Positions 5,762-48,591 of a stretch of 64,000 nucleotides of DNA are shown in pieces. Source of the DNA: Escherichia phage phiLLS. The notes under the pieces are model-generated. The model saw nothing but the letters and a program-made list of their open reading frames with translations, was not told where the DNA came from and did not search any database. The translations under genes were made by a program, and so were the position numbers. Every line of letters begins with the position of its first letter. Position 1 is the stretch's first letter. Location of the stretch: the sequence record NC_047822.1; one strand, given 5' to 3'.

Positions 5762-6719
5762 ATTTCGCAGCTCTAGCCAAGATTCTATCAATGTCGCCTT
5801 GAGATAGCTTCTCGACTTCACGGAAGTAAAGTTCAAGTTCACCTAACATATCAAGATCAACAAGATTTAACTTAGCGTCTTTAGTGACTCGATGATTAAT
5901 CTTCTTATCTAATAAATCAGAGTCTTTGATAGACTTTAATTGAACAACGTCACCAGTAACTTCATAGACTACACGATCATAATCACTAGGTTCCATCTCT
6001 TCACCAGCTCCGATTGTTTTACGAATCAGTTGTGGTAAATCACCTAGTTCAATCCATTCTACTTTTAATGTGTCGGTATCAATGATAAAGCAACCATTTG
6101 TACCTTTTGTGCGTTCTCTATGGAACGATGTAGTTAATGGGGATCCTGGGTAGAGAAGTCTAGTAGATCCGATAGTCTGGCTATTAGTATAAGAATGTAA
6201 ATCGCCAGCAATTACAGTATCATAACAGTTGTACTTAGTTAGATCAATTTCTGGTTTTACATGTGGAGGGATTTCACCACGAACATGTGTGAAACATAGT
6301 TTTGATTCAGATGGTTTCCATTTGGATTTATGGATCTCATCATACGGAACAATATCAAATTCAGGGGAACGATATGGTTTGGTAATTACTTCCCACTTAC
6401 CACTCGTTACTTTATTAATAACTCCTGCATAGTGATATAGACATGAAATGGTTTTAGTTAGCATTTCATGATTTCCAGTAAAGATTTTACCTGGATGGTC
6501 AAGTCTTGACATGAACTGTTCAAGCAGTTCTATTTCTTCTGACGACGGATCGGCAACATCAAGTATATCACCACCAGCAATATGAAGATCACAGTTATGA
6601 TTATGGAATATATCATTTAACCGTTCTCCTAGCATCAGGAAGCGACGCTTCTGCCATTCCTTTGGAACTTTATCTTGTCCTAGTTTGATATGATGATCAG
6701 CACTAAATAATATTCTCAT
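5742..6719 (-). CDS. SbcD/Mre11-like nuclease (calcineurin-like metallophosphatase)
   Basis: MRILFSADHH, GGDILD, GNHE, GDLH motifs. Confidence 0.85.
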   Translation of the reverse strand: MRILFSADHHIKLGQDKVPKEWQKRRFLMLGERLNDIFHNHNCDLHIAGGDILDVADPSSEEIELLEQFMSRLDHPGKIFTGNHEMLTKTISCLYHYAGVINKVTSGKWEVITKPYRSPEFDIVPYDEIHKSKWKPSESKLCFTHVRGEIPPHVKPEIDLTKYNCYDTVIAGDLHSYTNSQTIGSTRLLYPGSPLTTSFHRERTKGTNGCFIIDTDTLKVEWIELGDLPQLIRKTIGAGEEMEPSDYDRVVYEVTGDVVQLKSIKDSDLLDKKINHRVTKDAKLNLVDLDMLGELELYFREVEKLSQGDIDRILARAAKYVKDYN

Positions 6720-6721
6720 TG

Positions 6722-6750
6722 GTTAAAAAGAAAGGGGCCGAAGCCCCTCT
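6722..6750 (-). terminator. rho-independent terminator
   Basis: aggggccgaagcccct hairpin with T-run on minus strand. Confidence 0.6.
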
Positions 6751-6755
6751 ATTTA

Positions 6756-7529
6756 TTAATCGTCCAGATCGCTTGCAGCTTCTGAGTCAATACCTTTCTG
6801 GGAACCTGCATTGCTATTACCAGATTTGGCATCATCATCTTTATTCTCACGACCTTCCATGAAGGCTAGAATTGCTTCTTTCTGCTCTTCATAGGTAGGA
6901 ACCGGATAGGTTTGTTCCAGAGAAGGAACTTTTTCGAACTTAATGATGTCGCCATCTTCATCACACATAGCTTCACCGATCAGATCGACATCCGCAGCAT
7001 ATTGCTTAGATTCCGCACTGTTAGGATCTTGCAGCTTAATCTGGAACTGCATAGCAGCAATCTGCTGTACATCATACTCAGTATCGAAACCTTTACCTTT
7101 TTTCTCGATAGAAATATCAATATCAAACGGAGTTGCCAGGTTCAACTGCTTCATGATAGACTGGATGCCTTTCAGAATAGTAGCCTTGACTTCCATTACT
7201 TTCAGTTTGTTATCAGAACGGTCAATAACAAAGGCGATATAGTTTTTCTTAGGTTTCAGCGGAACACGATTACCATCTTTATCCAGCTCTTTCTCGAAGA
7301 AGCCCATCTCATGAACCGGATCAGCTTTACCACGAACAAAGCTCTCTTTGTCACGGTTAAAACGGAGACATTCGAAAGGAGCTACGCTACCCTCTTTATT
7401 AGTCAGCCAATAGACATAACGTGGAAGAACACCAGAAACGATACGAACACGAGTGATACCGTTGTTGAACTTCAGGAATTCGATTTTATCGTTAGAACCG
7501 CCAGTAGTTTCGCCCCAAGACTTAGCCAT
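6756..7529 (-). CDS. hypothetical protein (T5 D11-like), acidic C-terminus
   Basis: 257 aa ORF in replication module. Confidence 0.6.
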   Translation of the reverse strand: MAKSWGETTGGSNDKIEFLKFNNGITRVRIVSGVLPRYVYWLTNKEGSVAPFECLRFNRDKESFVRGKADPVHEMGFFEKELDKDGNRVPLKPKKNYIAFVIDRSDNKLKVMEVKATILKGIQSIMKQLNLATPFDIDISIEKKGKGFDTEYDVQQIAAMQFQIKLQDPNSAESKQYAADVDLIGEAMCDEDGDIIKFEKVPSLEQTYPVPTYEEQKEAILAFMEGRENKDDDAKSGNSNAGSQKGIDSEAASDLDD

Positions 7530-42842: not shown

Positions 42843-43285
42843 TGGAAGAGAATATTTTAGATGTTTTGCGTAGAGCTTTGCAGGATTCTAAGTTTAATGG
42901 TTCTGATAAAGAAGTCGCTAAAAGCTATCAGACCATAATCGGGGATCTTCAGCGTATTGATAAAGATTTCATCACTTCTGAACAATTTGTGTCTTATCTC
43001 AAAGCTCAACTAAAAAGCATTAACCAGATGAAAGCTAAACTTCATGGTCAAGATCTTGATAGTTATAGCTTGCAGTCCGCTCAGTATGAATACATTCTAA
43101 ATAAGTGGTTGCAGGAGTATCTGCCTCCTCAGTTATCTGATACTGAGATTCGTAAATACTTTGCAGAATTAGTTAAGCTAAACCCTGGAATTACAAAAGG
43201 TATGCTGATGAAAGCGATTAAGGAAGAATTTCCTGGGCGTTACGATGGTGGTACTGCTGCTCAGATTGCTGGCGAATTTAATTAA
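42842..43285 (+). CDS. GatB/YqeY-domain-like protein
   Basis: 147 aa; resemblance to YqeY/GatB C-terminal domain by eye. Confidence 0.4.
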   Translation: MEENILDVLRRALQDSKFNGSDKEVAKSYQTIIGDLQRIDKDFITSEQFVSYLKAQLKSINQMKAKLHGQDLDSYSLQSAQYEYILNKWLQEYLPPQLSDTEIRKYFAELVKLNPGITKGMLMKAIKEEFPGRYDGGTAAQIAGEFN

Positions 43286-43293
43286 AAATTTAT

Positions 43294-43322
43294 TTGCTAA
43301 ATGCTTATAAATTCTGTATAAT
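43294..43322 (+). promoter_or_regulatory. sigma70-type early promoter preceding ORF-free region
   Basis: TTGCTA-17-TATAAT. Confidence 0.55.
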
Positions 43323-43339
43323 ATATTCATAAATTAGAG

Positions 43340-44135
43340 AACAGCGAGCCGATTACGCTGAACTTGTCTTAATGTAAGATGCGTCGAGCACTAAGATTCG
43401 TTGAATAGAGTCGGTGGGTTAGTTGTAAAACTAGTACACAGGGGGCGGCAATCCCGGTTAGTGGCTAGAACGTGTAAAATGAGGCGTCTGAAACCTCTCC
43501 CCTAAACTCTTCTCTAATTTATAAATAGTGGGGTGTGGAAATCACTTATGTAGTAACACTGCCGTCCTAGTATAATTGGTATTATCAAGCCGTAACCGGT
43601 GGAAGATGTAGGTTCGAATCCTACGGTCGGTAAGAACTGGATAACTGATGCTTTTAACGTAAAAGCTTCCGAGGTTAGTTGCGCACTGCCTAAACCACGC
43701 GGTAGTTGGTTCCAGACTAACCAACCAGTCTGCTGAATAGTTTTATTACGATTTAACTATGTCCAGGCTAAAGAAGAACTTTAGAAGGTATTCTAGGATA
43801 GTGAAGTTCTTTCTCCATATCGGAGTAGTTTTTCAAGCTATCCACAAAGTGGGAAATGCTGACATGAGAGATGTCACTAATGGTGCACAATAGCACAGGT
43901 AATTCGCGATAACTCCTGTTGAGTAGCAGCAAAAGGCGGGAAGTCATGACCCCAAGCCTAACCGAGTCCTCAATATACCGCAGGACATAACCACTAAGTC
44001 ACCCTGACTTAAACTGGAAAATAATAGACGTTACTGTATTTTGTCTTGAAATACTTAATGAGTGAGACTTATGACTCTCCCGGTATCGTCTGTATTTTTA
44101 AGAGTTTTTTACGAGAGTTCTTAAAAATACTTAAA
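43340..44135 (+). ncRNA. candidate non-coding RNA region (promoter-driven, ORF-free, tRNA-like fragments)
   Basis: ~800 bp with no ORF above ~26 codons; internal T-arm-like GTAGGTTCGAATCCTAC at 43608-43624; several hairpins. Confidence 0.3.
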
Positions 44136-44207
44136 CGGGGTGTAGTCTAAGGGAGAGGCAGGAGTCTTCTAAATTCCTTTATGCAGGTTCGAATCCTGTC
44201 ACCTCGG
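44136..44207 (+). tRNA. tRNA-Arg (anticodon TCT)
   Basis: 7-bp acceptor, D/anticodon/T arms fold; TTCGAAT T-loop; CCA encoded. Confidence 0.8.
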
Positions 44208-44244
44208 CCAATTTTATTAACTGTAACTAAAACAAAGGAAATAT

Positions 44245-45192
44245 ATGTTTGCTACTAAAAATATGAAAGAACTGACTTCTGAGCAGAAAGTAATTCGTAC
44301 TATTAAACGTTGGGGTATTGGTGCTGTAGTTGGTTTAGCAGGTTTAGTCCTAGCTTTTAATTCATATACTATTGTTTCTGATGGTACGGTTAAAACCCAA
44401 ACATTCCTGGGTAAAGTAGACCCTAATCCTGTATTACCTGGTTTTCATCTTGTAAACCCATTTGCATCTTTCGATACTTTTAGTACAAAAGACATTGCTG
44501 TAAAATTAGATAAACTTCAGGTTCCTAGTCAGGATAAGTTTAAATCCACTGTTGACCTGACTGTTATGTTGCAGTTTGATGGTTCTAAGGCACCAATTAA
44601 CCGTATTAACGCAGGTACTCAGGACCAGGCGCTAGACAAGTATGTAACTGAAAAATTACTGTCTACTATTCGTGAGTTTGGTAAATCTGTACCTAAAGCA
44701 CAAGATTTATTTGATGCTAAAATTCAGGCTCAATTGCAAACTGCAATTCAACAGGAAGTTGAAGAGTATGCACGCCCATATGGTTACACAGTTAAGCAGG
44801 TGTTTCTTCAGGATATTACTTTGCCACCAGTAATTATGGAGCAAGTACAAAATACAAAAGTTCGTGAAGAACAAGTTAATGCGGCTAAAGCTGAATTGGC
44901 TCGTGTTGAACAAGAAGCACAGCAGAAAGTCAAACAAGCTGAAGCAGATCGTGAAGCACGTAACAACCAAGCTATCGCTAATGAACGTGACGCCGATGCT
45001 AAGCTGTATGCAGCTAAGAAAGAAGCTGAAGCTAACGCCGCATTGCAACGTACCATTACTCCTGAGATGATTCGTTGGAAGCAATTGGAAGTCGAAATGA
45101 TTCGTGCTCAGAAATATCAAGGTGGTGTACCTCAGACTGTGGTAGGTACTGGCTACGATGGTCAAATGATCATGGATATGCGTAATAAATAA
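44245..45192 (+). CDS. SPFH/band-7 (HflC/prohibitin-like) membrane protein
   Basis: 315 aa; N-terminal TM helix, SPFH-like core, long Ala/Gln/Glu-rich coiled coil. Confidence 0.7.
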   Translation: MFATKNMKELTSEQKVIRTIKRWGIGAVVGLAGLVLAFNSYTIVSDGTVKTQTFLGKVDPNPVLPGFHLVNPFASFDTFSTKDIAVKLDKLQVPSQDKFKSTVDLTVMLQFDGSKAPINRINAGTQDQALDKYVTEKLLSTIREFGKSVPKAQDLFDAKIQAQLQTAIQQEVEEYARPYGYTVKQVFLQDITLPPVIMEQVQNTKVREEQVNAAKAELARVEQEAQQKVKQAEADREARNNQAIANERDADAKLYAAKKEAEANAALQRTITPEMIRWKQLEVEMIRAQKYQGGVPQTVVGTGYDGQMIMDMRNK

Positions 45193-45214
45193 TATCCGCA
45201 CGTAACATCTGAAG

Positions 45215-45252
45215 TAAGCCCTGCGTTCCCTGGAGAGCGCAGGGCTTTTCTG
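45215..45252 (+). terminator. rho-independent terminator
   Basis: agccctgcg...cgcagggct hairpin + TTTTCT. Confidence 0.7.
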
Positions 45253-45269
45253 TACTTAAGATAAAAGAA

Positions 45270-45302
45270 AAGCCCCTAAGTCTTTCTACTAGGGGCTTTA
45301 TT
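45270..45302. terminator. bidirectional terminator hairpin
   Basis: agcccctag...ctaggggct hairpin flanked by A-run and T-rich tail. Confidence 0.6.
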
Positions 45303-45516
45303 GTTTGGTTTCTTAGAACCATATACTCTTGTTACAGCAACCACCCATACGGGAGGCCAATCTTGACTGAAAATCTACTCTAGGGGGCAGGATAAGAGTA
45401 GGCTTAAAGGCAAAGGGATTGAACGCCGGTATTTGTGTAAACATTGCTGGAGAGCAACAACGTGCTACAGGCATTGGGCAGCACGAAACAGATTTTCTGC
45501 AACACATAATTTCTCC

Positions 45517-45933
45517 TTAGGAGTTATTACCACCATTTTGAGCTTTTGCAACTTGGCTTTGGCAGAAGCTATTAAACTTACCCATAAGTGATACAAGCTG
45601 TTTCCCATCCTCTGTCTTTGCGAAGTCTTCGAAAAGGGCTAGTACTGCCTGTCCTTCCGCAGAAACCTGCGGTTGTTGGGTTTGTTGCTGAACTTGCTGC
45701 TGAGCCACCTGTTGCTGCATTTGTTGAGGCATTTGCGACTGCCCGCTCATTTGCTGCATCATTTGCATAGGACTCACACTTCCAGGGTTTTGCTGGAGTT
45801 GTTGCTGCATCTGTTGCGCTTCTGCTAAACGCTGTTGCAATTGTTGTAAGTAGGGGTTATCCAGACCCGGAATGGGCTGCTGGGAGCCCCTACTTTGATT
45901 AAGTCCGTTATTTACAAAACCATATTTACTCAT
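45517..45933 (-). CDS. Gln-rich low-complexity protein (hypothetical)
   Basis: 138 aa; poly-Q/QQM repeats; co-oriented with 45955-46947. Confidence 0.55.
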   Translation of the reverse strand: MSKYGFVNNGLNQSRGSQQPIPGLDNPYLQQLQQRLAEAQQMQQQLQQNPGSVSPMQMMQQMSGQSQMPQQMQQQVAQQQVQQQTQQPQVSAEGQAVLALFEDFAKTEDGKQLVSLMGKFNSFCQSQVAKAQNGGNNS

Positions 45934-45954
45934 AATGGGCTCCTCCCCCTAATA

Positions 45955-46947
45955 TTAAGCCGGCAGTTTAGCCTGCAGACCAGCCAGAGTCTGAGTGATA
46001 GCACCAAGACTTACAGCGATTTGATTAATTACCTGACCGTTAGCACCGTTACCCGCAGCGATTGCTTCACGTAGGCGACATGCATCTAACTCATCCTGAA
46101 TACGAGCAGTAGTTACACCAGCGATAGCAGTCTGAAGTTCACAGCAACATTCAGCGATCTGACGTTCCAGAGAGTTCTGGTTAGCACACATCTGAGCCTG
46201 AACAGCGGCAAACTGGTTATTAGTTTGTAAAGTCTGCTGGAAAGCGATCTGTGCAGAATCAAACTTATCTTGTGCACGAGCTATCTGATTAGCTGCGAAA
46301 GATTGATCAATCTGGCGAGAAAGATCGAACTGACCCTGAATAACGTTGCGAGTTTCCTGACAGATCTGATTAGACAGATTAGCACCTGTACCATAGATCG
46401 TAGTTAGTACAGACTGAGTATCACGGCTCTGGTTTTGGGATGTCTGGCTAAACCCATTGTTAACTGCGCTTAAAACAGCTCCAGTACCCTGGTTAGCTTC
46501 TGTACGAGTAGTGTTAATAGCTGCTAGAATACTAGCGGTATCTTGGTTCTGAAGTACTGCATCAACTGCGGTACCATCACCAACTACACCACGTCCACCG
46601 AATCCACCGAAACCACCGAATCCGCCTGTTAATAGAGCACCGATTAGGATAGCTCCGAATAGTCCCATACCTTCACCACCGAAAGCACCTGCGTTTGCTG
46701 GGTAACCACCCAGTAGGCCAGGGAAGCCACTAGTAAATACGTTTACTGGTTCTTGCATTTTATGTTTTCCATATTTATGACAATGTTCATCGTCATCTTC
46801 TTCATCATCGTGTTCACGATGTTTTTCTTCGTAGGCTCTGACCTTCTCCCACTTTTTCTTATCTGATTCCTCGTGACGGTGCAGTTCTGCTGCAACGCTA
46901 GCGACGGTCTCAGGACTCTTAGCTACTTCTTCTGTCATTTTTGACAC
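45955..46947 (-). CDS. Gly-rich / Gln-Asn-Ala-rich hypothetical protein with His/acidic N-terminus
   Basis: 330 aa; strong SD (AGGAGGTG); GGFGGFGGFGG hydrophobic Gly segment; C-terminal half predicted helical. Confidence 0.6.
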   Translation of the reverse strand: MSKMTEEVAKSPETVASVAAELHRHEESDKKKWEKVRAYEEKHREHDDEEDDDEHCHKYGKHKMQEPVNVFTSGFPGLLGGYPANAGAFGGEGMGLFGAILIGALLTGGFGGFGGFGGRGVVGDGTAVDAVLQNQDTASILAAINTTRTEANQGTGAVLSAVNNGFSQTSQNQSRDTQSVLTTIYGTGANLSNQICQETRNVIQGQFDLSRQIDQSFAANQIARAQDKFDSAQIAFQQTLQTNNQFAAVQAQMCANQNSLERQIAECCCELQTAIAGVTTARIQDELDACRLREAIAAGNGANGQVINQIAVSLGAITQTLAGLQAKLPA

Positions 46948-47145
46948 CTCCTAGTATATAGAAAATGTGTGTCTCTTTGATCACTCATCCATAACATATA
47001 CTTTACACTACCCCAGCGAAAATGTCAAGGGGTCTTTAAAAATTGCCCCTGAATTTTTAGTGGGGTCACAAATTTTGGTCCTCACCACTTATCTGCTATC
47101 CTTAAGTGCCCTATGATTTTCCTCTAAAAAGTTAAAAAAATTTGA

Positions 47146-47174
47146 TTGCTTGAATGCTAAATTCTCTGTATAAT
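47146..47174 (+). promoter_or_regulatory. sigma70-type early promoter
   Basis: TTGCTT-17-TATAAT. Confidence 0.55.
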
Positions 47175-47204
47175 ATATCTATAAATTTGAAAGAGGAACC
47201 AAAT

Positions 47205-47723
47205 ATGAATGTTGATGAGCTAACACAGCACCTCTTATCTAGAGGATTTGATACAGATAAATATCATTGCTGGTTAAGTCCGGAAGGATGGCTAACAGTC
47301 CCGTTGTATGACTTCTCTGGGATGTTGAGGGGCTATCAAACTTATAATCCTTCTGCTCCAAAAGGTCATGGTAAGTGCCCCTTTGAAGCTAAATACTTTA
47401 CTTATTCTACTACCCAGTGTGTATGGGGACTAGAAACTCTCAATGGAGATGAAAAAGTAGTATTGATTGCTGAATCTGTATTTAAGGCAGTTGCGTTACA
47501 TAATGCTGGTTATCCAGCCCTAGCAATGTTGGGTTCTTCTCCAGGAAAAGCGTTATTAAAGCAACTGAAATTACTACCTTTTAAATTGGTAGCTGTCGGA
47601 GATAATGATCCTGCGGGTGAAAAATTTGCTAGAAAATTAAACGGCTTTGTTTCTCCCGTAGATGTGGATGAGATGTCTACCGAAAACTTGAAAAATTTTC
47701 TTGCTATGAAGCTAAATTTCTAA
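47205..47723 (+). CDS. TOPRIM-domain protein (hypothetical)
   Basis: 172 aa; VVLIAESVFKAV ... AVGDNDPAGEKFARKL resembles TOPRIM E...DxD core. Confidence 0.5.
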   Translation: MNVDELTQHLLSRGFDTDKYHCWLSPEGWLTVPLYDFSGMLRGYQTYNPSAPKGHGKCPFEAKYFTYSTTQCVWGLETLNGDEKVVLIAESVFKAVALHNAGYPALAMLGSSPGKALLKQLKLLPFKLVAVGDNDPAGEKFARKLNGFVSPVDVDEMSTENLKNFLAMKLNF

Positions 47724-47729
47724 TATAAT
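47700..47729 (+). promoter_or_regulatory. sigma70-type promoter overlapping 3' end of preceding ORF
   Basis: TTGCTA-18-TATAAT. Confidence 0.45.
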
Positions 47730-47744
47730 ATATCTTATAAATTC

Positions 47745-47830
47745 GGAAGAATAGCATAACGGTATTGCAGCAGATTGCTAATCTGTCGGTTTGAAATATA
47801 GCCTTGTGGGTTCGATTCCCGCTTCTTCCG
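47745..47830 (+). tRNA. tRNA-Ser (anticodon GCT), class II
   Basis: perfect acceptor ggaagaa/ttcttcc, long variable arm, TTCGATT T-loop, CCA encoded. Confidence 0.8.
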
Positions 47831-47839
47831 CCAAATTCT

Positions 47840-47914
47840 GGTTCTCAAGCTCATATGGTATGAGCACCCGGCTCATAACCGGAAGGTACGTAGGTTCGAA
47901 TCCTCGGGGAGCCA
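47840..47914 (+). tRNA. tRNA with CAT anticodon (Met/fMet/Ile2)
   Basis: acceptor and D stems pair; anticodon loop CTCATAA; CCA encoded; T-stem imperfect. Confidence 0.65.
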
Positions 47915-47936
47915 CCAAATTAAATAGAGGTCACAA

Positions 47937-48125
47937 ATGGATCTATATATAGTTTATGTTGTGTTTATCCAAGATAGAGAATACCCGGATGAATATAAAA
48001 AAGGGTATAGGTTGGCCAGAGCTACCTCTGAAGCCCAAGCTATGGATAAAGTGGCAGATTATATGATTACGGTAGAAAACATACACTATATCGACTACCT
48101 TGAAGCCTCAAAAGTAATTGACTAA
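47937..48125 (+). CDS. hypothetical protein
   Basis: 62 aa ORF. Confidence 0.4.
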   Translation: MDLYIVYVVFIQDREYPDEYKKGYRLARATSEAQAMDKVADYMITVENIHYIDYLEASKVID

Positions 48126-48131
48126 ACTACA

Positions 48132-48205
48132 CGGGGGTGTAATCGAATTGGCATAGGTACTGGACTTAAAATTCAGGTTTTGTGGGTTCGAATCCCACCA
48201 CCCCT
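48132..48205 (+). tRNA. tRNA with TAA anticodon (Leu-decoding) but short variable arm
   Basis: perfect T-arm GTGGG/CCCAC, anticodon stem CTGGA/TTCAG, loop CTTAAAA; CCA encoded. Confidence 0.6.
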
Positions 48206-48384
48206 ACCAAACTAAGGAAATAAGATGTATAGACATCCACCTCCGCCAACACGTCGTTCTAGAGAAGTTATCCTCATGGAATTGACTAAAAACTTCAAGG
48301 CAACTCTTGAAGATAGAGATCTAGGTACAGATGAAGACGTTGATTTCATTTGTAAACTATTAAAAATGAAGCTGGAGAAACATC

Positions 48385-48591
48385 ATGGCTAACCGTGAAA
48401 TTACTATGCAACGAATCATGACTAAAGGCATGATAGCCGAGGCAGGTATTGAACAAGAAGTAAAAGGCTATTACGAACAGATTAAGACTATTATAGACTC
48501 TGCTAAAAACACCGGAGAAAAAGAGCATGGTGCGGCAATTATGGCTATAACTCTTATTAGTCTAGACTTGGCCGAAGAATCTGGAGTTTAG
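48385..48591 (+). CDS. hypothetical protein
   Basis: 68 aa ORF. Confidence 0.4.
   Translation: MANREITMQRIMTKGMIAEAGIEQEVKGYYEQIKTIIDSAKNTGEKEHGAAIMAITLISLDLAEESGV

What the first reader, a model, noticed from the sequence alone, without database searches (positions are those of the whole stretch)
45313..47000. Terminator-flanked minus-strand cassette of Gly-rich and Gln-rich low-complexity proteins inside a plus-strand early region
Two co-oriented minus-strand genes sit in an otherwise plus-strand block. 45955-46947 encodes a 330-aa protein with a His/acidic N-terminus, a hydrophobic GGFGGFGGFGG segment and a Q/N/A-rich helical C-terminal half. 45517-45933 encodes a 138-aa poly-Q protein. 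The cassette has its own strong SD (AGGAGGTG) and is bounded by hairpin terminators at 45215-45302. This composition is highly atypical for phage early proteins and resembles no enzyme family I can recognise; it looks like an independently transcribed accessory module, possibly membrane-acting or host-interfering.
Basis: partly seen in the sequence, partly recalled or inferred. Interest (0 to 1): 0.65.

Follow-up and report, generated by a model that had tools for sequence, protein, structure and literature searches.

The report
Mobile three-gene phage accessory cassette
This is the already annotated but uncharacterised T5.077-078-079 operon of a T5-like phage: a dispensable, self-contained three-gene cassette that also occurs in unrelated phages, and whose main product is probably a membrane-anchored helical rod with an invariant triple-cysteine motif from a large phage protein family of unknown function.

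Summary
The window is a T5-like phage (98.7% to SP15). The region is the orthologue of T5 genes T5.077, T5.078 and T5.079, which GenBank already annotates with promoter P12 and a bidirectional terminator.

There are three genes, not two. A 64-aa protein with four Cys-Cys doublets (45313-45507) completes the operon.

The cassette is non-essential:
- The viable T5 st0 deletion strain lacks it.
- About half of T5-like genomes have lost it through at least two different clean deletions.

The same three genes (one copy with a degenerate third gene) also sit in a lambdoid, an N4-like and a Pseudomonas RSP-like phage. Each time they are opposed to their neighbours, and two of the three copies show their own terminator. 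So this is a mobile, moron-like module.

The large protein belongs to a big uncharacterised phage family (at least 1,389 clusters, many in crAss-like phages). The family is defined by a Gly-rich hydrophobic segment, a long helical rod and a near-invariant CCC motif. No Pfam, PDB, defence-library or fold match is significant.

My best guess is a membrane-anchored, Cys-stapled rod acting at the host envelope, for superinfection exclusion or counter-defence. This function is inferred, not shown.

T5 has its own holin, endolysin and spanins. The published GenBank label "cAMP-dependent kinase" for the Q-rich protein is spurious.

The parts
47000..47028 (-). Sigma-70 promoter of the cassette (T5 'P12' / 'putative early promoter T5P21'): TTGACA, 17 nt, TAAAGT, followed by ATATG, which is close to the ATATT discriminator described for T5 early promoters
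   Evidence: 10/12 match; annotated in T5 and BF23; discriminator rule from PMC7472727; 46945-47045 is 97-100% identical across T5, BF23, Stitch and SP15
46945..46952 (-). Shine-Dalgarno sequence AGGAGGTG of P1, 8 nt before the ATG at 46938
   Evidence: Sequence read
45955..46938 (-). P1, orthologue of T5.077 (327 aa from the ATG; 330 aa if read from the GTG at 46947). Order of features: N-terminal helix, acidic/His-rich linker, Gly-rich hydrophobic segment, about 190-residue helical rod with a CCC motif, conserved C-terminal tip
   Evidence: (phrog_8119, E=4e-203); dN/dS 0.14-0.16
46594..46728 (-). Gly-rich hydrophobic region of P1 (residues 74-118). It includes the putative transmembrane core GMGLFGAILIGALLTGGF and GGFGGFGGFGG
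   Evidence: Kyte-Doolittle 1.72 over 19 residues; G112 and G117 conserved in at least 90% of family members; family median hydropathy 1.48; coordinates
46141..46149 (-). CCC motif (Cys267-269), the hallmark of the family
   Evidence: C268 and C269 invariant and C267 at least 90% conserved in 41 diverse members; CCC present in 97% of 291 members
45958..46041 (-). Conserved C-terminal tip NGQVINQIAVSLGAITQTLAGLQAKLPA
   Evidence: Nearly identical from T5-likes to the lambdoid, N4-like and RSP-like copies
45517..45933 (-). P2, orthologue of T5.078 (138 aa). It has a Q-rich middle and a conserved C-terminal segment EGQAVLALFEDFAKTEDGKQLVSLMGKFNSFCQS, and no hydrophobic segment
   Evidence: (phrog_7894, E=4e-79)
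45313..45507 (-). P3, orthologue of T5.079 (64 aa). It starts with MCC, has four CC doublets, is Pro/Phe-rich, and has no hydrophobic segment or signal peptide
   Evidence: positional homologues in L037, L038, L039 and L042; 97-100% protein identity in T5, BF23, Stitch and JLBYU40
45261..45299 (-). Intrinsic terminator of the cassette (GC-rich hairpin followed by UUUUCUUUU on the minus strand)
   Evidence: -16.9 kcal/mol, z=-3.1; annotated in T5 and BF23 as bidirectional terminator ter1
45216..45252 (+). Convergent terminator of the SPFH gene (hairpin followed by UUUUCUGU on the plus strand). It contains the T5 major-nick consensus AGCGC at 45236-45240
   Evidence: (-27.8 kcal/mol, z=-5.3)

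Best explanation
SHOWN
- 45313-47028(-) is a self-contained three-gene operon: promoter, P1, P2, P3, terminator. It is orthologous to T5.077-078-079.
- It is under purifying selection, is dispensable for lytic growth, and is repeatedly deleted in T5-like phages.
- P1 and P2 homologues also occur in lambdoid, N4-like and RSP-like phages, each time opposed to the flanking genes. A P3-like ORF follows in the lambdoid and RSP-like copies, and a start-less remnant in the N4-like copy. This is a mobile, moron-like accessory cassette.
- P1 belongs to a very large uncharacterised phage protein family. The family core has a short N-terminal motif, a Gly-rich hydrophobic segment, a long alpha-helical region with amphipathic periodicity, and a near-invariant CCC.

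INFERRED
- P1 is a single-pass inner-membrane protein. Its N-terminal extension (a confident helix plus an acidic/His-rich linker) sits in the cytoplasm.
- Its helical rod is about 190 residues, roughly 23-29 nm, comparable to the width of the periplasm. It projects outside the membrane, oligomerises as a coiled coil and is stapled through the CCC ring (interchain disulfides).
- P2 and P3 lack export signals. They co-occur only with P1 versions that carry the N-terminal extension, so they probably bind that cytoplasmic part.
- The cassette is expressed early from a sigma-70 promoter.

MOST LIKELY ROLE (my commitment, low certainty)
A conditionally useful host-envelope function of the infected or lysogenic cell. 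The rod would obstruct or occupy the envelope route used by competing phages, that is, superinfection exclusion. It is not a role in replication, virion structure or lysis.
For: - Operon anatomy.
- Purifying selection.
- Dispensability: the T5 st0 genome lacks T5p067-078, which includes the cassette. There are clean natural deletions of two kinds, 45255-47161 in EH7 and 45345-47093 in S114 with a P3 remnant. Only 214 of 445 matching records carry the whole region.
- Mobility: homologous cassettes in L042 (between the Q antiterminator and the lysis genes of a lambdoid phage), L043 (N4-like, with vRNAP) and L039 (Mu-like portal, RSP-like). All are opposed to their neighbours. Own terminator hairpins were seen in L042 and L043.
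- Family breadth and CCC.
- Structure: AF2 with 106 sequences gives helix 15-48 at pLDDT about 95 and one continuous helix 176-327 at pLDDT 72-87. Hydrophobic periodicity of 3.6 residues has z=5.
- Hydrophobic segment: Kyte-Doolittle 1.72.
- Partner pattern: the N-terminal extension occurs together with P2, with a P3-like ORF or remnant downstream, in 6 of 6 cassette contexts. It occurs in 0 of 7 short-type contexts.
- Hosts: all cultured hosts of family members are diderm.
- Not in virions: absent from the BF23 virion mass-spectrometry list.
- Not needed for lysis: T5 has its own holin, endolysin and Rz-like spanins.
Against: - No experiment or homology links any of the three proteins to exclusion or to any other function.
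- Topology is ambiguous. The hydrophobic segment is Gly-rich and only moderately hydrophobic across the family (median 1.48; only 40% of members reach 1.6). Flanking Lys/Arg counts are low and slightly higher on the C-terminal side (0.56 against 0.25), which would favour the opposite orientation.
- P2 and P3 are cytoplasmic by default, so the rod could be cytoplasmic too.
- In crAss-like phages, eiAU, phiWae15 and a myovirus, family members are co-directional with late, tail or lysis genes rather than being morons. This suggests a different core role for the family.
- The AF2 model is a monomer with pTM 0.27. The oligomeric state is a guess.
Confidence: 0.35

Rival explanations
1. Counter-defence module. 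The cassette is part of the T5 'anti-defence island' and neutralises a host immune system, possibly a membrane-acting abortive-infection effector.
For: - The immediate neighbour 47154-47723 is Rad/ORF75, which inhibits retrons. The region also holds tRNA-Tyr and other retron-evasion determinants.
- In the N4-like phage L043, the cassette lies about 2.7 kb from a Sequestin gene, an anti-defence signal sponge.
- Its presence/absence pattern and mobility are typical of anti-defence genes.
- The preprint notes that T5n, but not T5j, lost plating efficiency on AVAST 2, with no determinant assigned.
Against: - T5n and SP15m, which carry deletions of about 8 kb, lost infectivity only on retrons among 33 defence systems. 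That defect was rescued by fragments F6 and F8, not by a cassette fragment. I could not confirm that those deletions include the cassette.
- No PADLOC or Pfam hit.
- A 327-aa membrane rod with low-complexity partners is unlike known small soluble inhibitors.
- The only support is the identity of neighbouring genes.
Confidence: 0.25
2. Lysis-related envelope device. P1 is an inner-membrane-anchored, periplasm-spanning rod that helps disrupt or fuse the envelope (spanin-like, or class-I-fusion-like with a GLFGAI 'fusion peptide'), or that tunes lysis timing.
For: - The predicted rod length of 23-29 nm is about the width of the periplasm.
- GLFGAI resembles the start of the influenza HA2 fusion peptide (recalled from memory, not tested).
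- crAss-like homologues sit 1-2 kb from the holin and endolysin. Many end in Gly/aromatic tails (FWG, FWN) that could reach the outer membrane.
- crAss-like copies are annotated 'spike protein/glycoprotein'.
- The profile gives marginal hits to coronavirus spike HR1 and to trimeric autotransporter coiled coils.
Against: - T5 already has a holin, an endolysin and Rz-like spanins (T5.040, T5.041, T5.044, T5.045).
- The cassette is 17 kb away from those genes, under an early-type promoter, and is dispensable.
- There is no lipoprotein partner. P2 and P3 have no lipobox or signal peptide, and no lipobox ORF is embedded in P1.
- The PDB and Foldseek matches are all non-significant: E at least 0.05 for the PDB profile search, 2.5 for Foldseek against the PDB and 0.4 for Foldseek against BFVD.
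Confidence: 0.12
3. Cytoplasmic self-assembling scaffold. P1 rods (Gly/Phe-rich head plus helical rod plus Cys), the Q-rich P2 and the CC-doublet P3 would form a filament, condensate or metal-bridged assembly in the cytoplasm. This would be analogous to keratin with its high-sulphur associated proteins, or to FG/Q-rich condensates.
For: - P2 and P3 lack export signals.
- Composition: a GLFG/GGFGG segment, Q/N-rich helices, the CCC motif, the CC doublets in P3 (CCRK, CCPMP, CCSP), and His-rich inserts in some P1 N-termini.
- The flanking-charge bias slightly favours the C-terminus being inside the cell.
- Foldseek lists vimentin and Vipp1/PspA among its non-significant top hits.
Against: - All the resemblance is compositional. 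No IF consensus motifs were seen (by eye only) and there is no significant structural match.
- Disulfide cross-linking would not occur in the reducing cytoplasm.
- The hydrophobic core passes the usual transmembrane threshold in the T5-type protein.
Confidence: 0.1
4. Virion component (head fibre, spike or ejection protein), as the crAss-like annotations 'spike protein/glycoprotein' and 'outer capsid protein/viral fiber' suggest.
For: - Annotations in crAss-like records.
- Position next to tail-fibre, portal or capsid genes in eiAU, L007, L003, L010 and cr116_1.
- Gly-rich hydrophobic segments occur in ejection proteins (general knowledge, not tested).
Against: - T5 st0, which lacks the cassette, makes normal infectious virions (plus established use of that strain).
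- The protein is not among the BF23 virion proteins found by mass spectrometry.
- The promoter is of the early type.
- None of the crAss001 virion proteins I looked up in the structural atlas paper matches the family. Only gp21 and gp29 were checked, and the head fibre gp29 is 118 aa with a beta-sandwich.
Confidence: 0.03

Closest known systems
T5.077, T5.078 and T5.079 of phage T5 (NC_005859); 'ORF 326aa / 138aa / 64aa' of BF23; PHROGs 8119 and 7894
   Same: Orthologues with the same order, the same promoter (P12) and the same bidirectional terminator, next to the 32.6% nick. P1 is 80-89% identical, P2 95% and P3 100%.
   Different: Nothing of substance. All are annotated 'hypothetical'. AY587007 splits P1 into ORF072 and ORF073 and mislabels P2 as a kinase.
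Phage morons and accessory cassettes (for example lambda bor, opposed to the late operon; Stx-phage cargo between Q and the lysis genes)
   Same: An autonomous promoter and terminator, orientation opposite to the flanking operon, presence/absence polymorphism, occurrence in unrelated phage backbones, and the Q-to-lysis insertion site in the lambdoid copy.
   Different: The encoded proteins are unrelated to any known moron product. The cassette also occurs in strictly virulent phages (T5-like, N4-like), where it is expressed as an early gene.
Spanins (lambda Rz/Rz1, T4 PseT.3/PseT.2, T1 gp11)
   Same: A predicted membrane anchor plus a long helical, Cys-containing periplasmic-length rod. Spanins also use intermolecular disulfides.
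   Different: No outer-membrane lipoprotein partner and no link to the lysis cassette. T5 has separate Rz-like spanins. P1 is two to three times longer than i-spanins.
crAss-like phage genes annotated 'spike protein/glycoprotein' or 'outer capsid protein/viral fiber' (phrog_16490; for example cr116_1 gp022)
   Same: The same protein family: a Gly-rich hydrophobic N-terminal segment, an N/Q-rich helical region and the CCC motif. L010 matches phrog_8119 at E=6e-8, and the profile searches link the two groups.
   Different: The crAss-type proteins lack the N-terminal extension and have no P2 or P3 partners. They carry Gly/aromatic/Cys-rich C-terminal tails and are co-directional with late genes. 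Their annotation rests on remote coiled-coil similarity, not on data.
Extracellular disulfide-stapled coiled coils (COMP, matrilin, fibrinogen disulfide rings); hair keratin with high-sulphur keratin-associated proteins
   Same: Only by analogy: clustered Cys inside a long helical rod, a Gly/Phe-rich head, and a small partner with CC-x-P motifs.
   Different: No sequence or structural homology. This comparison is recalled from general knowledge and was not tested.

Membership tests
T5.077 family (phrog_8119) and the wider CCC-rod family (phrog_16490, phrog_9288) | Full-length profile match | tested here: met
   phrog_8119 E=4.2e-203 over residues 4-330. A profile of the family finds 631 representatives at E<=1e-3 and at least 1,389 clusters at E<=1e-5.
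T5.077 family (phrog_8119) and the wider CCC-rod family (phrog_16490, phrog_9288) | Gly-rich hydrophobic segment followed by a helical region with a CCC motif | tested here: met
   C268 and C269 invariant; C267, G112 and G117 at least 90% conserved. CCC present in 97% of 291 members.
Phage moron / autonomous accessory cassette | Own promoter and terminator, opposed to the flanking transcription units | tested here: met
   The same arrangement is seen in L037, L038, L039, L042 and L043.
Phage moron / autonomous accessory cassette | Dispensable and variably present among close relatives; present in unrelated phage backbones | tested here: met
   The T5 st0 deletion; two kinds of natural deletion; 214 of 445 records carry the whole region; lambdoid, N4-like and RSP-like contexts.
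Two-component spanin (Rz/Rz1 type) | i-spanin: N-terminal transmembrane domain with a periplasmic coiled-coil domain | tested here: inconclusive
   One hydrophobic segment (Kyte-Doolittle 1.72) and a long helix are predicted. However, the segment follows a 90-aa N-terminal domain, and the topology is untested.
Two-component spanin (Rz/Rz1 type) | A cognate outer-membrane lipoprotein (lipobox plus signal peptide) embedded in, overlapping or adjacent to the i-spanin gene | tested here: not met
   P2 and P3 have no hydrophobic signal or lipobox (maximum Kyte-Doolittle 0.45 and 0.85). The embedded minus-strand ORFs have no lipobox.
Two-component spanin (Rz/Rz1 type) | Part of the lysis cassette and the phage's only spanin | tested here: not met
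   T5 encodes holin T5.041, endolysin T5.040 and Rz-like spanins T5.044 and T5.045 elsewhere in the genome.
Holin | A small membrane protein next to the endolysin gene, expressed late | tested here: not met
   P1 is 327 aa, has an early-type promoter and is not adjacent to the endolysin.
Class I viral fusion / 'spike glycoprotein' (the annotation of crAss-like homologues) | Significant sequence or structural similarity to a fusion-protein core (HR1/HR2) | tested here: not met
   Best profile hits in the PDB have E=0.054-2.3 (SadA fragment, MHV E2, spike HR1). Foldseek against the PDB has no hit with E<2.5.
cAMP-dependent protein kinase catalytic subunit (the GenBank label of P2, 'kapc') | Protein kinase catalytic domain | tested here: not met
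   No Pkinase or other significant Pfam or NCBIfam hit. The protein is 138 aa and 27.5% Gln.
Anti-defence proteins | Demonstrated inhibition of a defence system, or homology to a known inhibitor | not testable with these tools
   Only the neighbourhood points this way: Rad is adjacent and Sequestin is near the N4-like copy. There is no homology.
Superinfection-exclusion proteins | Expression blocks adsorption or DNA entry of incoming phage | not testable with these tools
   Inference from the predicted envelope location, the moron-like architecture and the early or autonomous expression.
Virion structural protein | Detected in purified virions, or required for particle formation | tested here: not met
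   Not in the BF23 virion mass-spectrometry table. T5 st0, which lacks the gene, is a viable strain.

The most novel reading that the evidence does not exclude
P1 would be the T5-type representative of a large, unrecognised class of phage envelope proteins: inner-membrane-anchored, CCC-stapled coiled-coil rods long enough to bridge the periplasm.

In crAss-like and other phages, where the rod carries a Gly/aromatic C-terminal tail and sits near the lysis genes, it could be a new single-chain device for disrupting the outer membrane, a 'reverse-topology' spanin.

In T5-like, N4-like and lambdoid phages, a tail-less version with two cytoplasmic Cys/Gln-rich partners would have become a mobile cassette with a different role, such as exclusion or counter-defence.
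Probability: 0.12. Interest if true: 0.8.

Novelty: new variant of a known kind. Interest (0 to 1): 0.48.

Why it matters
- The cassette sits in the dispensable tRNA-rich 'anti-defence island' of T5-like phages. That region is under active study, and not all of its phenotypes have been assigned to genes.
- It is a compact three-gene unit that phages of four unrelated architectures have acquired, which argues for a portable, host-directed function.
- Its main protein links T5, an easily manipulated model phage, to a family of more than a thousand uncharacterised proteins. These include a widely conserved gene of crAss-like phages, the most abundant viruses of the human gut.
- Working out the function in T5 would therefore annotate a large block of phage 'dark matter'.
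- On a practical level, the report corrects propagated misannotations: 'cAMP-dependent protein kinase' for P2, and a split ORF for P1 in AY587007. It also casts doubt on 'spike glycoprotein' for the crAss-like homologues, a label for which I found no significant support.

Tried and rejected
- **Pfam, NCBIfam and PADLOC scans of P1-P3:** nothing significant.
- **PDB profile search with the family alignment:** only marginal coiled-coil hits, E at least 0.05.
- **AlphaFold2, run twice:** extended helices, pTM 0.21 and 0.27.
- **Foldseek against the PDB and BFVD:** no hit with E<0.4.
- **Rfam scan of 43000-48500:** only tRNAs; no structured RNA in the cassette.
- **Spanin hypothesis:** rejected. 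There is no lipoprotein partner, and T5 has its own spanins.
- **crAss001 head fibre gp29 as a homologue:** rejected. It is 118 aa with a beta-sandwich.
- **P3 as a split-off equivalent of the Gly/aromatic/Cys-rich C-terminal tails of crAss-type members (both end in ...SIW-x):** the P3 profile against 297 family proteins gave no hit better than E=0.3. Not supported.
- **Prophage and host survey in representative bacterial genomes:**
  - The NSFN-type alignment found nothing.
  - The crAss-type alignment found only MAG contigs, whose host assignment is unreliable. One contig apparently uses a recoded stop codon.
- **Search of complete E. coli genomes for the lambdoid copy:** no match.
- **Literature searches for T5.077, T5.078 and T5.079:** no paper found.
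- **Bas33 RNA-seq and proteomics supplement:** could not be mined for the orthologue.
- **The statement in PMC10644984 that BF23 lacks ORF071-075:** this conflicts with the older BF23 tRNA-region record, which contains the cassette. I did not resolve the conflict and did not use it as evidence.
- **A 20-codon uORF (46997-46935) overlapping the P1 start:** considered, but its ATG lies at or before the expected transcription start. Left as unverified.
Full report
**What the window is**

The 2.1 kb around the finding is 98.7% identical to Escherichia phage SP15, and at least 80% identical to 415 T5-like (Demerecviridae) records. The window carries 21 tRNA genes, all on the plus strand. In SP15 every annotated gene within ±4 kb is on the plus strand, apart from the two cassette genes annotated there and one 43-codon ORF.

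**Checking the observation**

The ORFs, the composition and the Shine-Dalgarno sequence are as described. Three corrections apply.

- The GTG at 46947 lies inside the SD (AGGAGGTG, 46952-45). The ATG at 46938 is the start used in the T5, BF23 and SP15 annotations, giving 327 aa.
- There is a third gene at 45313-45507(-). It encodes 64 aa with eight Cys arranged as four CC doublets, and it has its own SD.
- The two hairpins at 45216-45299 both lie downstream of the cassette.
  - One is its own intrinsic terminator: on the minus strand, a stem followed by UUUUCUUUU.
  - The other is the terminator of the convergent SPFH gene.
  - Upstream there is a sigma-70 promoter: TTGACA, 17 nt, TAAAGT, at 47028-47000.

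**It is already annotated**

- NC_005859 (T5) lists T5.077 (321 aa), T5.078 (138 aa) and T5.079 (64 aa). It also lists 'promoter P12' and an 'efficient bidirectional rho-independent transcription terminator', followed by a major DNA nick.
- BF23 has 'ORF 326aa/138aa/64aa', P12 and ter1.
- AY587007 calls the promoter 'putative early promoter T5P21', splits P1 into ORF072 and ORF073, and labels P2 'cAMP-dependent protein kinase catalytic subunit'. That label has spread to other genomes and is baseless: no kinase domain is detected.
- The sequence after the -10 element (ATATG) is close to the ATATT discriminator reported for T5 early promoters (PMC7472727).
- No paper mentions T5.077, T5.078 or T5.079.

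**The genes are real**

| Comparison with T5, BF23 and Stitch | P1 | P2 | P3 |
|---|---|---|---|
| dN/dS | 0.14-0.16 | 0.11-0.31 | not meaningful (97-100% protein identity) |
| dS | 0.46-0.63 | 0.09-0.14 | 0.02-0.05 |

MCC-/MCGCC-initiated, CC-doublet, Pro/Phe-rich ORFs of 60-69 codons follow the P1 and P2 homologues in four divergent copies. A fifth copy, the N4-like one, has only a start-less remnant.

**It is dispensable and repeatedly lost**

- The sequenced T5 st0 deletion strain, a viable laboratory strain, lacks T5p067-T5p078. The missing stretch is 8.5 kb and includes Rad, the cassette and the SPFH gene.
- Among 445 records matching 44245-47723, only 214 cover at least 80% of it.
- EH7-type genomes join 45254 directly to 47162. 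S114-type genomes join 45344 to 47094 and keep a scrambled remnant of P3. These are therefore independent deletions of an ancestral cassette.
- Nat Commun 2024 (PMC11555353) and its preprint describe deletions of about 8 kb in this 'tRNA-rich region / anti-defence island' in T5n and SP15m. The only phenotypes were retron sensitivity, which mapped to tRNA-Tyr and ORF75 (Rad). Rad is the gene immediately upstream of the cassette promoter on the other strand (47154-47723).

**It is mobile**

The cassette recurs, always opposed to its neighbours:

| Locus | Phage type | Context |
|---|---|---|
| L037, L038 | Distant T5-like (P1 about 44% identical) | Opposed to flanking genes |
| L039 | 62-kb Pseudomonas RSP-like | Next to terminase and a Mu-like portal |
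| L042 | Lambdoid | Between NinG/Q-antiterminator and holin-lysozyme-Rz, the classic moron site |
| L043 | N4-like | Near vRNAP and a Sequestin anti-defence sponge gene |

- L042 and L043 each have their own terminator hairpin.
- L042 and L043 also have a divergent small Zn-ribbon ORF just upstream.

**The protein family**

- P1 matches phrog_8119 and P2 matches phrog_7894, both of unknown function. P3 matches no PHROG.
- A profile of P1 relatives finds 631 representatives at 50% identity with E<=1e-3.
- A broader profile finds at least 1,389 clusters at 90% identity. Many lie on contigs of 90-105 kb, the size of crAss-like genomes.
- Family members are typically 250-330 aa. They share:
  - a short N-terminal motif (xVFxFP or PVNVFT);
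  - a Gly-rich hydrophobic segment;
  - an N/Q/A-rich helical region;
  - a CCC motif, invariant or nearly so in 41 diverse sequences and present in 97% of 291 members;
  - often, a Gly/Tyr/Trp (and sometimes Cys)-rich tail ending in FWG, FWN or IWS.
- In crAss-like records the homologues are annotated 'spike protein/glycoprotein' or 'outer capsid protein/viral fiber'. I found no significant similarity to support this.
- In these phages, and in eiAU, phiWae15 and a myovirus, the gene is co-directional with tail, lysis or capsid genes. It is followed by unrelated small genes.
- All cultured hosts are diderm: Enterobacteria, Pseudomonas, Edwardsiella, Aeromonas and Bacteroides.
- Met64 of T5-type P1 aligns with the start Met of the short members. 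The 63-residue N-terminal extension therefore belongs to the cassette type. It co-occurs with P2 (plus a P3-like ORF or remnant) in 6 of 6 cassette contexts and in 0 of 7 short-type contexts.

**Structure**

With 106 aligned sequences, AlphaFold2 gives:
- a confident helix at residues 15-48 (pLDDT about 95);
- a disordered acidic/His-rich and Gly-rich stretch;
- helices at 137-169 and 176-327 (pLDDT 72-87).

This amounts to a rod of about 23-29 nm. Large hydrophobic residues recur every 3.6 residues (z=5). The hydrophobic core scores Kyte-Doolittle 1.72 in T5-type P1, but the family median is only 1.48. Flanking charges are too few to fix the orientation.

**Interpretation**

The genetics are solid: this is an autonomous, mobile, dispensable three-gene cassette. 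The biochemistry is inferred.

- I favour a single-pass membrane protein with an extracytoplasmic rod that oligomerises and is stapled by the CCC cluster.
- P2 and P3 would bind its cytoplasmic N-terminal extension.
- The most probable role is an envelope-level host-interaction function: superinfection exclusion first, counter-defence second.

Lysis and virion roles are unlikely for the T5 cassette:
- T5 has its own holin, endolysin and spanins.
- T5 st0 is viable without the cassette.
- BF23 virion mass spectrometry lacks the protein.

These roles remain open for the crAss-type relatives.

**Novelty and interest**

As an observation it is already in GenBank. As biology it is an uncharacterised variant of a known kind of element, a phage moron or accessory cassette. 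Its large protein belongs to a very large phage family with no known function. Interest is moderate. The system is easy to test in T5, lies in a region under active study, and would annotate a conserved crAss-like gene. However, nothing here demonstrates an unusual mechanism.

Noticed in passing
47154-47723 (+): This 189-aa TOPRIM protein is the orthologue of SP15 ORF75 / T5 ORF071, 'Rad', the retron anti-defence protein. Many GenBank records still call it 'DNA primase'.
   Followed up: partly
44245-45192 (+): An SPFH/band-7 membrane protein (Pfam E=2e-17), convergent with the cassette and sharing its terminator region. It is widely annotated as 'lipoprotein'. It was deleted together with the cassette in T5 st0.
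   Followed up: partly
45236-45240 (+): The consensus of the T5 major single-strand nick (32.6% site, Pu-GCGC) lies inside the SPFH-side terminator hairpin. The cassette's 3' boundary therefore coincides with a programmed nick.
   Followed up: partly
45345-45845: P3 and most of P2 are 96-100% identical at the nucleotide level to T5, BF23 and even the Epseptimavirus Stitch. In contrast, the middle of P1 is 65-90% identical and the flanks are 74-97%. dS is 0.02-0.14 here against 0.46-0.63 in P1. This points either to a recent recombinational sweep of this half of the cassette or to a constraint at the nucleotide level. Other T5-likes have P2 at only about 75% identity, which favours mosaicism.
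   Followed up: partly
47840-47914 (+) and 43561-43632 (+): Rfam tRNA hits (40.3 and 35.5 bits) that ARAGORN did not report. The first corresponds to the tRNA-Met/Ile2(CAU) annotated in SP15 and T5. The second lies in the 'RNAX' region, where AY587007 annotates a tRNA pseudogene.
   Followed up: no
L042 3719-3919 (-) and L043 3759-3911 (-): In the lambdoid and N4-like copies, a conserved small Zn-ribbon ORF of 51-67 aa (MDRRYCPxCGTLxHKCxxCGxWFTK...) is transcribed divergently just upstream of P1. T5-likes lack it. They do share the 11-mer ATGTTATGGAT at the equivalent spot, but in the opposite orientation.
   Followed up: partly
46759-46827 (-) and homologues P0003, P0008, P0013: The acidic/His-rich linker of P1 is expanded in some T5-likes into runs such as HHYHHHHHEHYEE. 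This suggests metal binding in the N-terminal extension.
   Followed up: no
46935-46997 (-): A 20-codon ORF (MLWMSDQRDTHFLYTRRCQK) in the leader ends in ATGA, overlapping the P1 start codon. Its ATG lies at or just upstream of the expected transcription start, so it may not be translated. The leader region (46945-47045) is 97-100% conserved.
   Followed up: no
L029 (Faecalibacillus MAG contig, 154 kb) 6001-6831: The family member here is interrupted by an in-frame stop, and the neighbouring ORFs are short. This suggests a stop-codon-recoded phage genome binned into a Firmicutes MAG. L003-L005 likewise did not translate to the query under table 11.
   Followed up: no
PMC10644984 versus NC_042564 (L014): The BF23 genome paper states that BF23 lacks T5 ORF071-075, which covers Rad through the SPFH gene. 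The older BF23 tRNA-region record contains all of these genes, and the paper says its assembly aligns perfectly with that record. This is an unresolved inconsistency.
   Followed up: partly
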